A DNA stretch of 61,553 bases, the filler included, from Nitrospirae bacterium CG2_30_53_67 (GTDB lineage: Bacteria > CG2-30-53-67), in the NCBI GenBank assembly GCA_001873285.1. It is 6 parts of 6 records of this genome, joined end to end, with 100 filler letters (N's around TTAATTAATTAA, not from the genome) between each part and the next. Parts side by side here need not be neighbours in the genome. Positions count along the whole stretch, not along the records: positions 9,432 to 23,621 come from MNYV01000145.1; 5 more parts are not named here. The stretch is one strand, 5' to 3'. The position numbers were made by a program. Shown here piece by piece: positions 15,701-18,700 of the stretch. How positions within the stretch are numbered: position 1 is the first letter of the stretch; each line of letters starts with the position of its first letter.

Positions 15701-18700
15701 CACGTGGTTCCTCGATCGGTTTCCCCTGATCGTCTTTTTTCAGGTACCTCCGCTCAAGGACCTTGATGGCGTTCGGATAGAGAGTCAGCTTCTCCTCCTT
15801 GGCTTTGGGCACGGGGAAGACCAATGGAGGCATGCGTTTGATTCCGTATTTCAGCAGTTTGGCCTCGATCAGTTTCTGCATGACCGCATGCGGAACGGAC
15901 TTTCCGTTCATCCGGCAGAATTCCTGCTCGATATCCCGGCTGATCATGGCCGCCATCTCCTCGTTGCCATGATTTTCAAGTAGAAGGGCCTGCATGAAGT
16001 GGTCGCGGTTCCAGGATAAGACAGGAATCAGATCCAATCCGTCCTGGTTTTGAACTTCTCCGCCCATCCCCATGGCTTCTTTCATAACCATTTCCACCCC
16101 CTCAATGACTTCTTATTTATTCCACAGGATCGCCTCAAAATGCACACAGGATATTCACAGCATCTTCACAGAAATCGCATCATGTTGTATATGGCTGACC
16201 AATATACTACAATACTTAGTGATGTCAAGAAAAAAGTGGGGTGTGAAAACAGAAAAAATTGGGGCCGGTGAAAGGTCGCCGGTCATGGGTCAGTCAATGG
16301 CGGGAGGGGGCGGGAATCGAACCCACCAGGCGGGGTATTAAGCCGCCCCACCGGATTTGAAGTCCGGGCCGGACACCAGCACCGAATCCCCTCCCGTAAA
16401 ATCAAACTCTAAACTCTAATATCTAAACTCTAAACAAAATCAAAATTCCAAACACAAATGTTCCAAACCATTCTGAACTTTTTGCCTTCTCTACTTTGTT
16501 TTTTCCAGGATGGCTCCAAAAATCTTCATAAGCTCGGTGGCTTCCTGAATTAGATAGTGATTTGTTTTCTCAGTTTCTTTATTACAATCGACAAGTTTTA
16601 ACCAATAACGAGTCTCTTTTGCTTCCTTTCGGCAGATCTTCACCCTCATTATAAAATCTTTTTTACTTAATGACTCATTAGCCTCAATATAATTCGCTCC
16701 CACCGACCCTGCCGATCTCACCAATTGTTTTATGACTTCATTATTGGTCAACGTCTTCGGCAATTCATTTACGAACTCAATAGTTCGCCTTGCATAATTC
16801 AGAGTCCGTTCCTCTAGATCATATCGTTTTGAATTTTGATTTTCTGTCATTCGATATTGTTTAGAGTTTAGAATTTCGTATTTAGGATTTGAACCCATAT
16901 CAGTGAGAATATATATTTTCTCAATCATGGGGAATCACCTATGGCTTCTCAGAGACTCCTTATAATACCCGTATTCTTCTTCGAAGTTCGGAGTAAAGAC
17001 CCCGGTCCCGATGCTCTTTTCGATCTCCTTCATGTTCCAGAACCGGACCTCGGTGATCTCGACGGGATCAAATGCAATCTTTCCGCAGTACCGGCAGAGG
17101 TAGGTCCGCACATTCTCGGATTCGACCGGGTTTCTAAGCGGATAGGCGTAAAGAAACGAGAGGTCACGGCCCTCGATCCCCAGTTCCTCTTTCATCTCGC
17201 GGCAGACCGCAGTCTCGTAGTCCTCGCCGATATTCAGATGGCCGCCCACGGACGTGTCCCATTTACCGGGCTGGATATCCTTGGCCGGCGAGCGTTTCTG
17301 CAGCAGGATCCGTCCTTGTTCGTCGACCAGCAGGACATGGACAACCCGGTGCACGAGGGAGGGGTTCCCATGGCATTCGGACCGGAGGGCCTTGCCGACC
17401 ACATGGTCCTTCTCATCGACAATTTCTAAATATTCTTCCATCTTACCGCTTCAAGACTTTCAGGAGGCTTTCCAATGTGCGCACGTGGCCCTTTTCAAAC
17501 TCGACCAGATCTGAGAAGGCCTTCCGTGTTTCCGGATCTTGGGTCATCCGGACCATCTCGGAATAAAAGGCTACGGCGTCCTTTTCAAAATTTGAGGCGA
17601 GTTTCACGGCCTGGATCTCGTCATTGAGGTTGAGCGCCGCCTTCTCCGCATCCGGGCCCTCGGGGAAGATTCCTCCCTCCATATAACCCTCGAAATAGCG
17701 CTGCACAATCTCTTCAACGGCCGGGTCCGGATACCCCTCGGAATTCGGGTCCGTGATCATGGATTCGATGTCCGAGACATGCTTCTGCTCTTCCTCGGCC
17801 ATTTTCTCGAAGACCGTACGGGCCTGTTTTCCCGTGACCCGGTCTTTTATCCCATGATAAAACCGGAACCCCTGGCGCTCCAGGGCAACGGCGATCTTCT
17901 TGGCTTCATCCGTGTTAAAGGGTTTTCCTTCAAAAACGCTCAAAATATTTTTTTTGTTCATCGGCGGCTGCTCCATAGGTTGATTTTCAAATTAAAAAGG
18001 ATCTTATCAGAAGCCCCGGATCCGTTTCAAGCAAAATCCCGGAACCATCCTTCTGAATGTCCCCGGTCCTTAGTGGCCCTGTTCGTAAATACTGTGACGC
18101 ACCGAGAGGGTTGTAGAGCGGTCTCATCAAGGCGCGCGACTGAGGCGTACCCCCTGTGGTACGGCGCAGGGAGCGATACGATGATGAGGCCGCTCTACAA
18201 CACTCAAATGCCACCGTATTTACGAATAGGGCCACTCAAATCCCGCAGACCCGGCAATAGCCGTTGAACTCCTGGTCCACGGAGACCAGGCTGCCGGGTT
18301 TTTGTTTCAAGAGGTTCAGGACCTGGGTCCCCTTGCTCCCGTACCGGTAAATGGTCACGCCTTTGCATTTGAGGGCGTGTGCCATGAGATAGATTTTTTT
18401 CACGTCATCGGCCGTGGCCTGTTCGGGCAGGTTCACGGTCTTGGACACGGCATTGTCCGTATAACGCTGAAACGCCGCCTGGATTTTGAGATGATCTTCC
18501 GGAGCGATGTCCATGGCGGTCTTGAAGAGGGCCCGGATCCCTTTGGGGACGGAGCGGACGTTCCGGATGCTCCCGATGCCCATGATCTCATCCCTGAGCC
18601 GAGGTGTCAGGACCTTTGCTGCCATCTCTTCGAATAGGGGATTGAACTCGATGAGGTCCCGCCCGTCGAGCACGTGCCGGACGAATGAGACCGCGAAGTG

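What a model noticed while it worked through the whole genome (the two positions that open the first line are those of the whole stretch)
16397..16899. IVS-protein (PF05635) genes sit in hairpin cassettes whose arms are locus-specific tandem heptamers
The 119-aa PF05635 gene at C169:7060-7419 (minus strand) is bracketed by a 43-nt array of about 7-nt units that ends at its start codon and by the complementary array after its stop. The cassette abuts tRNA-Sec. The same layout holds for most PF05635 genes sampled across bacteria, outside rRNA genes: periodic arms, a different unit at each locus, a purine-rich 5' arm, tight against the ORF.
Evidence so far: - Sequence and Pfam. Arm score 20.5 against an own-genome 99th percentile of 14 over 1768 genes. 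RNA fold: the arms form the closing stem, z -3.71. - 39 of 52 loci from 32 genomes score >=14, and 46 of 52 beat the controls in their own locus. Period 7 in 33 of 39. 5' arm purine-rich in 31 against 7, p 1.2e-4. - 5 of 5 named cyanobacterial plasmid genes show it. - Within-locus pairings >=14 in 44 of 57, against 48 of 3192 cross-locus pairings. - ParE control: 1 of 8. - Arms lie a median 13.5 nt from the start and 10 nt from the stop. - 0 of 20 loci lie in rRNA, and there is no Rfam hit.
(Added by a program. Inside this text positions count along the whole contig: they may not be those of the stretch shown here. "Call 12" and the like, gene names such as g00115 and contig names such as C1 are that model's own, and its searches are not shown. 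The text may have been shortened before it was handed on; [...] marks where a part breaks off. The agent that wrote the report below was given it as the finding of a first reader that could run no searches.)

Follow-up and report, generated by a model that had tools for sequence, protein, structure and literature searches.

The report
Mobile hairpin cassette carrying IVS-protein gene
A small gene of unknown function sits in a 500-base insert whose two ends are mirror-image runs of 7-base repeats, a layout that most of its relatives across bacteria share and that marks them as hitch-hiking gene cassettes like those long known inside ribosomal RNA genes.

Summary
The 119-aa PF05635 gene (window 16491-16850, minus strand) lies in an AT-rich ~500-nt insert. 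The insert sits between a Nudix gene and tRNA-Sec and is closed by complementary period-7 arrays.

- **Arm score:** 20.5, against an own-genome 99th percentile of 12.6.
- **Insertion:** the same-genus relative has the insert; six family-level relatives do not.
- **Generality:** arms above the threshold occur in 60 of 79 loci sampled across phyla and in 56 of 70 loci of the target's own subfamily. They also occur in 11 of 18 phylum loci and 5 of 6 named cyanobacterial plasmid genes, but in only 12 of 29 loci in one gammaproteobacterial family. Displaced-window controls gave 1 of 304.

Three things are new:

- Cassettes sit sense-oriented between cistrons of housekeeping operons, with the arms' outer ends at the upstream stop and the downstream start.
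- Arms are specific to the element family, not the locus. Within the target's subfamily they are homologous.
- The window's genome holds ORF-less deletion derivatives. A sister family has about 140 copies with 8-bp target duplications.

Mismatches in the arms show no G·U excess, so nothing indicates selection on the RNA strand.

I read it as an rRNA-IVS-type mobile cassette outside rRNA. RNase III cutting, the mobility enzyme and the reason for period 7 remain inferred or unknown.

The parts
16860..16892 (-). 5' arm: tandem heptamers (A-rich; units such as AAATCCT and AAACTCT on the gene strand). The periodicity continues weakly across the start codon.
   Evidence: Period 7, 4.4 copies; inverted repeats I1, I2 and I5; 43-nt aligned arm, score 20.5
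16848..16850 (-). Start codon ATG of the 119-aa reading. It lies in a 15-nt internal loop between the outer and inner helices of the predicted fold.
   Evidence: MFE structure; sequence
16491..16850 (-). PF05635 (23S rRNA IVS protein / four-helix-bundle protein) gene, 119 aa
   Evidence: Pfam E 2.7e-15, 57 bits; PDB 2RLD at E 2.5e-12; more than 8000 relatives, the best 120 at 61-100% identity
16826..16843 (-). Inner helix, 5' strand: codons 3-8 of the ORF
   Evidence: 18 nt, 94% complementary to 16436-16453 (pair I4); paired in the MFE. The partner differs in the same-genus relative, so conservation is weak.
16436..16453 (-). Inner helix, 3' strand, between the stop codon and the periodic 3' arm
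   Evidence: (I4)
16397..16435 (-). 3' arm: tandem heptamers complementary to the 5' arm (TTTAGAG type on the gene strand). It ends 1-6 nt before tRNA-Sec.
   Evidence: Period 7, 4.6 copies at 16404-16435; (I1, I5). Metagenome contig depth spikes over it, up to 1219 against 48 in the flanks.
16397..16899 (-). Whole cassette: an AT-rich insert absent from six family-level relatives
   Evidence: GC 0.32-0.385 against 0.53 for the genome. Present at 85% identity in same-genus G001. In G002-G007 the Nudix gene is followed by tRNA-Sec after 30-250 nt without the gene.
16894..16931 (-). Small palindrome between the Nudix stop and the 5' arm. Whether it belongs to the insert is open.
   Evidence: I6; also present in G001 and not in G003
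16298..16395 (-). tRNA-Sec, the downstream host gene on the same strand
   Evidence: ARAGORN; Rfam RF01852, 73.9 bits
16935..17441 (-). Nudix hydrolase gene, the upstream host gene on the same strand
   Evidence: Pfam NUDIX E 1.5e-19

Best explanation
The feature is a mobile, promoter-less gene cassette of the kind known as the intervening sequence (IVS) of 23S rRNA genes, here sitting outside rRNA. It consists of a PF05635 gene bracketed by terminal inverted arrays of tandem heptamers. It entered a transcription unit in the sense orientation, between the stop of a Nudix gene and the 5' end of tRNA-Sec, in the lineage leading to this genus.

The arms are the ends of the element and travel with the gene.

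Inferred: in the host transcript the arms pair into a long stem. The stem loops the cassette out and brings the two host RNA ends together. In rRNA IVSs that stem is cut by RNase III. This would keep the insertion harmless to the host operon and would release or stabilise the cassette's own message.

Shown here: the insertion, the arms and their period, the generality of the layout, the operon embedding, co-transfer of arms with the gene, ORF-less derivatives, and transposition footprints in a sister family.

Inferred or unknown: RNA folding in vivo, RNase III cutting, what moves the element, what the protein does, and why the unit is 7 nt.
For: Insertion:
- Same-genus G001 has the cassette at the same site. 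Six relatives in four other genera have Nudix followed by tRNA-Sec without it; the gap is 30 nt in G003.
- GC is 0.32-0.385 against 0.53 for the genome.

The arms are real and general:
- Target 20.5 against an own-genome 99th percentile of 12.6.
- 60 of 79 loci from many phyla score at least 12.63, against 1 of 304 displaced windows and 17 of 400 cross-locus pairings. Period 7 holds in both arms in 53 of the 60.
- 56 of 70 loci in the target's own subfamily, with period 7 in 55.
- 5 of 6 named plasmid genes.

The arms travel with the gene:
- The target's subfamily shares homologous units next to unrelated flanks.
- Its proteins are 61-88% identical in Nitrospirota and archaeal MAGs.

Hitch-hiking in operons:
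- Neighbours with a Pfam hit lie on the cassette's strand in 42 of 45 cases upstream and 43 of 49 downstream.
- The upstream stop lies in the 5' arm or within 15 nt before it in 24 of 34 loci. The downstream start is a median 13 nt after the 3' arm.
- Same site, different units: nuoC|nuoD in L058, L059 and L096.

Derivatives and mobility:
- ORF-less copies of the target's arms occur in the own genome, one keeping the first codons.
- The octamer-armed sister family has 280 arm sites and 83 paired elements, 9 of 81 of which keep ORF pieces. Its 8-bp target duplications reach at least 7 of 8 matches in 24 of 40 elements, against 2.8 in controls.
- The arms recur in many other metagenome contigs.

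Precedent: the Coxiella rRNA IVS has a 28-bp terminal stem cut by RNase III, and 2-3 tandem heptamers before the S23p start (PMC4990558, passages read).
Against: - No target-site duplication is visible at the target or in 40 loci of its subfamily.
- No transposase with matching ends was found in the own genome: no ISL3-type transposase, and the three DDE genes have unrelated ends. The assembly is 95% complete and breaks at these repeats.
- Arm mismatches show no wobble excess: G·T plus T·G 48 against A·C plus C·A 55, and 82 against 94. The RNA-stem part of the reading therefore gets no support from substitution patterns.
- A sizeable minority of loci lack arms: 19 of 79, 14 of 70, 7 of 18 and 17 of 29.
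- The same operon site is occupied in distant lineages (nuoC|nuoD). That also fits long vertical residence.
- Period 7 and the purine-rich 5' arm remain unexplained.
Confidence: 0.55

Rival explanations
1. The arms are binding arrays for the PF05635 protein itself. The protein is a ring of five subunits in solved relatives. Each heptamer would be one binding unit, and binding would serve autoregulation or the element's own mobility. The protein would then be the cassette's maintenance or mobility factor.
For: - Arm length has a median of 30 nt (IQR 26-35), which is 4-5 units. The solved relative 2RLD has five chains in its entry.
- Units from 56 loci align circularly to a shared core A-G-K-N-G-Y-Y: 4.09 bits against 3.04 ± 0.19 in 50 shuffles, maximum 3.58.
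- In the octamer family PF05635 is the only gene found between the arms.
- Avd, a PF05635-like protein of diversity-generating retroelements, is related by structure (PMC10053308, passages). That Avd binds nucleic acid and reverse transcriptase is recalled, not read here.
Against: - Protein distance and unit distance are barely correlated: Mantel r 0.056, with 135 of 2000 permutations at least as high.
- 72 of 81 paired octamer elements carry no ORF piece.
- No binding test is possible with these tools.
Confidence: 0.2
2. The arms exist mainly for RNA-level control of a vertically inherited gene. They would act as an RNase III processing site, an end-to-end stem that stabilises the message, or a mask over the start codon. 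Mobility would play no role.
For: - In the fold the arms close the structure and the ATG sits in an internal loop.
- In the target's subfamily the arm alignment reaches into the ORF in 20 of 56 loci and covers the start codon in 11 of 56. The 24-nt start region pairs with its own 3' region at a score of at least 9 in 27 of 70 loci, against 6 of 70 shuffles.
- RNase III cuts rRNA IVS stems.
- The orientation bias fits co-transcription with the host operon.
Against: - There is no G·U excess over A·C in arm mismatches.
- In the broad sample the 20 loci scoring 22 or more were printed, and in several of them a Shine-Dalgarno-like motif and the start lie in the loop, not in the stem.
- Presence/absence at the target site, the foreign GC content, homologous arms next to unrelated flanks, the ORF-less copies and the target duplications all point to movement.
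Confidence: 0.2
3. The heptamer arrays are slipped-strand switches. Because 7 is not a multiple of 3, gain or loss of a unit shifts reading frames or spacing. That would turn the cassette gene, or a host gene that reads through it, on and off.
For: - Unit number varies. G001 has a longer 3' array than G000 at the same site. One octamer copy has about 12 units against 2-3 elsewhere. Coxiella strains differ by one unit.
- Five cassettes lie inside DNA-methylase-type ORFs whose frame stays open through the cassette: C67, L041, L042, L083 and L118. Further in-frame heptamer arrays occur in L083, L118 and L056.
Against: - Most cassettes are intergenic: 71 of 79 have no through-frame.
- A switch does not need two complementary arrays.
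- Four metagenome runs show this locus without length variants in their contigs. Contigs do drop rare variants.
Confidence: 0.08
4. The complementarity arises by chance in low-complexity AT-rich sequence.
For: The target's arms are A/T-rich and repetitive, which inflates local alignment scores.
Against: Controls: own-genome ORFs, displaced windows (1 of 304) and shuffles (median 7.5, maximum 14.5). The same layout occurs with G+C-rich units in many phyla.
Confidence: 0.01

Closest known systems
Intervening sequences (IVS) of 23S rRNA genes that carry an S23p/PF05635 ORF (Coxiella burnetii; also Leptospira as cited there) - PMC4990558, passages read
   Same: - Same protein family.
- The ORF is enclosed by complementary termini that form a long stem.
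- Tandem purine-rich heptamers (GACAGAT in Coxiella) stand before the start, and their number varies between strains.
- The ORF is in the sense orientation within a host transcript.
- Patchy distribution, read as horizontal transfer.
- That paper quotes older proposals that the IVS is a transposition remnant or a mobile element.
   Different: - The target is not in an rRNA gene. It lies between a protein gene and a tRNA, and relatives lie between cistrons of operons or even inside ORFs.
- Here the heptamers form both arms and are the rule across phyla.
- ORF-less derivatives and target duplications are seen here.
- RNase III cutting is shown only for the rRNA cases.
[quoted passage not shown]
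   Same: - Terminal inverted repeats.
- Internal-deletion derivatives of a gene-bearing form.
- Many copies.
- 8-bp AT-rich target duplications in the octamer-armed sister family.
   Different: - No transposase gene lies inside, and none with matching ends was found.
- The target's own subfamily shows no target duplication.
- The inverted repeats are built from tandem 7-nt units.
Heptamer repeat families of bacteria: GGGAATC arrays of Xanthomonas, with 70-75 convergent pairs per genome, and GGGGA(C/T)T of Nostoc (PMC4692102, passages); TAACTGA arrays before start codons in Beggiatoaceae (PMC4679880, passages)
   Same: - Period 7, intergenic location, G-rich units, inverted pairs.
- PF05635 genes in the family of Luteimonas soli are flanked by GGGAATC/GGGAATG arms: L167, L169, L178 and L186.
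- Cyanobacterial cassettes have GGGAGTC- and GGGAGTT-type arms: L118 and L083.
   Different: - Neither paper contains the terms 'intervening sequence', 'four helix' or 'S23' (0 occurrences each).
- Most of their arrays have no gene between them.
- Whether they derive from cassettes was not tested here.
Avd, the accessory protein of diversity-generating retroelements (PMC10053308, passages)
   Same: That paper states the PF05635 domain resembles Avd by sequence and structure alignment.
   Different: No reverse transcriptase or template/variable repeat lies beside the target. The only RT match in the genome is on another contig.

Membership tests
rRNA intervening sequence (IVS) with S23p ORF | Lies inside a 23S (or 16S) rRNA gene and replaces a helix loop | tested here: not met
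   The neighbours are a Nudix gene and tRNA-Sec, and there is no rRNA match in 15900-17500. 0 of 20 related high-scoring loci lie in rRNA.
rRNA intervening sequence (IVS) with S23p ORF | Carries an ORF of the S23p / PF05635 family | tested here: met
   57 bits against a cut-off of 33.8
rRNA intervening sequence (IVS) with S23p ORF | Complementary termini form a long stem that encloses the ORF | tested here: met
   70-nt inverted repeat, 70% complementary, with 94% cores. The arms close the MFE fold, z -3.30.
rRNA intervening sequence (IVS) with S23p ORF | Excised from the transcript by RNase III | not testable with these tools
   No RNA run was listed for this DNA
MITE / non-autonomous DNA transposon | Terminal inverted repeats at the element's ends | tested here: met
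   In 40 subfamily loci similarity ends at the outer ends of the arms;
MITE / non-autonomous DNA transposon | Target-site duplication | tested here: not met
   None is seen at the target or in its subfamily. It is met in the octamer-armed sister family: 24 of 40 against 2.8 in controls.
MITE / non-autonomous DNA transposon | Several dispersed copies, with internal-deletion forms | tested here: met
   ORF-less copies lie on C103, C113/C168 and C67 in the own genome, with more in G001. Depth spikes over the arms in metagenomes.
MITE / non-autonomous DNA transposon | A transposase elsewhere with matching ends | tested here: inconclusive
   There is no ISL3 match, and three DDE_Tnp_1 genes have unrelated ends. 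The genome is 95% complete and fragmented at these repeats.
Diversity-generating retroelement (Avd) | Adjacent reverse transcriptase and template/variable repeats | tested here: not met
   The only RVT_1 match is on contig C88. Nothing of the kind appears among the ORFs of 14500-19000.
Bacterial heptamer repeat arrays (GGGAATC type) | Tandem 7-nt units, often as convergent pairs | tested here: met
   Period 7 in both arms. Units differ in sequence from GGGAATC but fit the shared R-R-N-N-N-Y-Y pattern (my reading).

The most novel reading that the evidence does not exclude
PF05635 genes with heptamer arms form one vast class of self-contained mobile cassettes. On this reading the ring-shaped protein recognises its own heptamer arrays and drives or guards the element's movement. 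The long-unexplained heptamer repeat families of bacteria would then be largely their ORF-less offspring. These families include GGGAATC pairs in Xanthomonas, cyanobacterial heptamers, and the roughly 140-copy hairpin family in this genome. Their stems would let them sit harmlessly in rRNA, in operon spacers and even inside genes.
Probability: 0.15. Interest if true: 0.9.

Novelty: new variant of a known kind. Interest (0 to 1): 0.75.

Why it matters
- **Function of the family.** PF05635 is a very large family without a known function outside retroelements. One subfamily alone gave more than 8000 hits here. A shared and testable architecture gives a handle on it: gene plus inverted heptamer arrays, sense-inserted exactly between cistrons.
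- **Link to rRNA.** It ties the classic rRNA intervening sequences to a much wider set of elements.
- **Source of heptamer repeats.** It offers a possible origin for heptamer repeat families that have been described but not explained.
- **Annotation.** The layout explains assembly breaks. It also flags small genes wedged into nuo, sdh, fatty-acid, cas and restriction-modification operons.
- **Scope of the literature search.** I found no paper describing the layout outside rRNA in the searchable library. The searches covered PF05635; 'intervening sequence protein' with 'inverted repeat'; 'S23 ribosomal protein'; 'four helix bundle protein' with heptamer; STRR with heptanucleotide; and a five-term sweep. 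Subscription journals and supplements were not searched.

Tried and rejected
- **RNA evidence:** no RNA holder was listed, so expression and RNA ends could not be examined.
- **Population variants at the locus:** contigs of four DNA runs show the locus unchanged. Two low-depth joints appear in one run (a 206-nt and a 137-nt skip, sides 42 and 30). These may come from other organisms.
- **ISL3 idea:** it came from recalling that ISL3 elements make 8-bp AT-rich duplications. The own genome has no ISL3 match. One Nostoc plasmid copy does lie next to an ISL3 transposase, but it lacks paired arms.
- **DDE transposases of the own genome:** their ends are unrelated to the octamer family's ends.
- **Stop codons in all three frames of the 5' arm, as the reason for period 7:** by eye, many arms have no stop in their unit (for example the L048, L050, L059 and L118 arms). 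I dropped the idea without a count.
- **Invertible segment:** the strong sense bias (42 of 45 upstream, 43 of 49 downstream) argues against frequent flipping.
- **Protein-to-unit specificity:** the Mantel test was weak.
- **Open frames through cassettes as a general trait:** only 8 of 79, and I judge the two antisense ones and L107 to be chance in G+C-rich DNA.
- **A broad 18-sequence alignment for the genome scan:** too diverse for the tool. A narrower one was used instead.
- **Compensatory changes between G000 and G001 arms:** differences exist but are not clearly compensatory in a fixed register.
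Full report
**What is at the site.** On the minus strand the window reads Nudix gene (16935-17441), then a PF05635 gene, then tRNA-Sec (16298-16395).
- The 119-aa reading (16491-16850) matches PF05635 at 57 bits against a cut-off of 33.8. Its best solved relative is 2RLD.
- The gene is bracketed by an inverted repeat, 16402-16471 against 16823-16892. 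It is 70 nt long and 70% complementary, with 16- and 18-nt cores at 94%.
- Both outer arms are period-7 arrays (16404-16435 and 16860-16890).
- The 18-nt core pairs codons 3-8 of the ORF with 16436-16453. In the predicted fold the ATG therefore lies in a 15-nt internal loop between two helices. The arms close the fold, with z -3.30 and 0 of 100 shuffles as good.
- The insert has GC 0.32-0.385, against 0.53 for the genome.
- Rfam finds only tRNA-Sec.

**More than chance.** I scored the best antiparallel pairing between 100 nt upstream plus 30 nt of the ORF and 120 nt downstream, using match +1, mismatch -1.5 and gap -2.5.
- Among 1875 crude ORFs of the genome the median is 7.5 and the 99th percentile 12.6.
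- Ten ORFs reach 20.5 or more. These are ordinary genes flanked by copies of a dispersed repeat.

**It is an insertion.** A DNA search of 30 relatives shows two patterns.
- The same-genus genome G001 carries the cassette at the same place, at 85% identity and with a longer 3' array.
- Six genomes of four other genera in the family have the Nudix gene followed by tRNA-Sec without the gene.
- The spacer is 30 nt in G003 and 63-250 nt in the others.
- Two of those spacers (G004, G006) hold a pyrimidine-rich heptamer-like run before the tRNA, and one (G007) an ORF-less periodic run. I cannot say whether these are relics.

**Generality, tested on my own samples.**
- *Broad sample.* A scan of species-representative genomes with an alignment of the commoner PF05635 type gave 80 loci. 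They range from Verrucomicrobiota to Clostridia and include one archaeon. Of 79 usable loci, 60 score at least 12.63, 56 at least 14 and 27 at least 20.
- *Controls for the broad sample.* Windows displaced within the same loci gave 1 of 304. Pairing one locus's upstream flank with another's downstream flank gave 17 of 400. Shuffles had a median of 7.5 and a maximum of 14.5.
- *Arm properties in the broad sample.* Both arms have best period 7 in 53 of the 60. The 5' arm is purine-rich in 49 against 11. Arm length has a median of 30 nt. The 3' arm begins within 2 nt of the stop in 22 of 60.
- *Own phylum.* 11 of 18 loci pass and 13 of 18 have period 7.
- *Complete genomes.* In five complete genomes, 10 of 16 copies pass, with different units per copy. 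Five of these are loci already counted above.
- *Named cyanobacterial plasmids.* 5 of 6 pass. The sixth has only a 3' array.
- *Family of Luteimonas soli.* The gene is in 31 of 61 genomes, but only 12 of 29 loci pass.
- *rRNA.* None of 20 high scorers lies in rRNA.

**Not locus-specific.** A metagenome scan with the target protein gave 80 loci at 59-77% identity.
- Of 70 usable loci, 56 pass, and 55 of those have period 7.
- Their units are visibly the same family as the target's, including the last unit next to the ORF.
- Similarity ends at the outer ends of the arms, and the flanks of the 40 loci printed are unrelated.
- Across the broad sample, units from 56 loci align circularly to A-G-K-N-G-Y-Y. 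The information content is 4.09 bits, against 3.04 ± 0.19 in shuffles.
- Unit distance follows protein distance only at close range. It is 1.67 for six pairs under 0.35 protein distance and 3.2 beyond. The Mantel r is 0.056, with 135 of 2000 permutations at least as high.

So arms travel with the gene and turn over faster than the protein.

**Where cassettes sit.** I scanned 150 of 156 flanking frames against Pfam.
- Neighbours with a hit lie on the cassette's strand in 42 of 45 cases upstream and 43 of 49 downstream. Both do in 30 of 34.
- The sites are spacers of housekeeping operons: nuoC|nuoD (three loci), E2|E3, thiolase|acyl-CoA dehydrogenase, sdhA|sdhB, thyA|folA, ilvN|ilvC and lpxA|lpxI. 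On plasmids they include cas10|cmr3 and cas6|cas4.
- The upstream stop codon lies inside the 5' arm or within 15 nt before it in 24 of 34 loci.
- The first possible start of the downstream gene is a median 13 nt after the 3' arm.
- The base of the stem would therefore rejoin the two host cistrons, as an rRNA IVS stem rejoins a helix.
- The three nuoC|nuoD cassettes have three different units.

**Mobility in this genome.**
- The Pfam search of the genome found PF05635 pieces at many contig ends.
- These belong to a family with tandem octamer arms, outer inverted ends and, in some copies, internally deleted ORFs.
- Probes for the two arms hit 280 sites, giving 83 adjacent pairs.
- 9 of 81 paired elements keep ORF pieces, with at least four deletion patterns.
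- Flanking 8-mers match at 7 or more of 8 positions in 24 of 40 elements, against 2.8 when flanks are re-paired.
- The target's own arm type also occurs without the ORF on C103, C113/C168 and C67, and in G001. The C103 copy keeps the first codons.
- In four groundwater and aquifer DNA runs, contig depth over the arms rises to 1219 and 337, against about 50 in the flanks.

**RNA or DNA?** In arm alignments scored without favour to wobble pairs, G·T plus T·G number 48 against 55 for A·C plus C·A. In the target's subfamily the figures are 82 against 94. Selection on a sense-strand RNA stem should favour G·U, and this is not seen. Alternative registers in periodic arms blur this test. In the target's subfamily the start codon lies inside the aligned arm in 11 of 56 loci. 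In several of the 20 broad-sample loci scoring 22 or more that were printed, a Shine-Dalgarno-like motif and the start lie in the loop.

**What is known.**
- For the Coxiella rRNA IVS, Warrier et al. (PMC4990558, passages read) report a 28-bp terminal stem and cutting by RNase III.
- They also report 2-3 tandem GACAGAT heptamers before the S23p start, varying between strains, and they quote older mobile-element proposals.
- Heptamer arrays and convergent pairs in Xanthomonas and Nostoc, and TAACTGA arrays, have been described. Neither paper contains the terms 'intervening sequence', 'four helix' or 'S23'.
- Arms of the GGGAATC type flank PF05635 genes in the family of Luteimonas soli.
- My searches found no description of the layout outside rRNA.

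**Verdict.** The best reading is an IVS-type mobile cassette outside rRNA. The RNA role, the moving enzyme, the protein's function and the period of 7 remain open.

Noticed in passing
Own genome contig C67 (locus L001 579-2210, cassette about 1445-1905); also L041, L042, L083, L118: The second full PF05635 copy lies inside a DNA-methylase-like ORF. The host frame runs open through the whole cassette in another frame (543 aa from stop to stop). The same holds at the same site (after FGEPDI) in a Chthoniobacterales MAG and a Dehalococcoidia MAG. It also holds in two cyanobacterial restriction-modification-type genes, one at only 44% GC.
   Followed up: partly
Own genome, about 280 sites (for example C164:2910-3313, C127:6084-6422, C36:7303): A hairpin element family has tandem octamer arms, outer inverted ends and 8-bp AT-rich target duplications, in about 140 copies in 2.37 Mb. 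Copies are often nested with other small hairpin elements, and they cause many of the assembly's contig breaks.
   Followed up: yes
L014 (G006) and L016 (G004), spacer before tRNA-Sec; L144 (Nostoc PCC 7120 gamma plasmid) after the gene: Solo pyrimidine-rich heptamer-like arrays occur without a complementary partner. Two lie at the empty Nudix|tRNA-Sec site of relatives, and one lies 3' of a plasmid PF05635 gene next to an ISL3 transposase. They may be relics of lost arms.
   Followed up: no
L083, L118, L056 host ORFs: Further heptamer arrays lie in frame inside large methylase-type genes, giving 7-aa peptide repeats (three units equal 21 nt). No PF05635 gene lies between them.
   Followed up: no
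L125/L126 (G032, a Caldilineaceae chromosome): Two identical PF05635 matches lie 470 nt apart in tandem. Only the outer flanks show arms.
   Followed up: no
window 13491-16097 and 18236-19999 (minus strand): Two ribonucleotide-reductase-like ORFs (868 and 587 aa, similar N-terminal halves by eye) flank the Nudix-rubrerythrin-cassette-tRNA-Sec stretch. I did not scan them against Pfam.
   Followed up: no
window 21349-21452: ARAGORN calls a 104-nt tRNA-Met (CAT), unusually long. I did not examine it.
   Followed up: no
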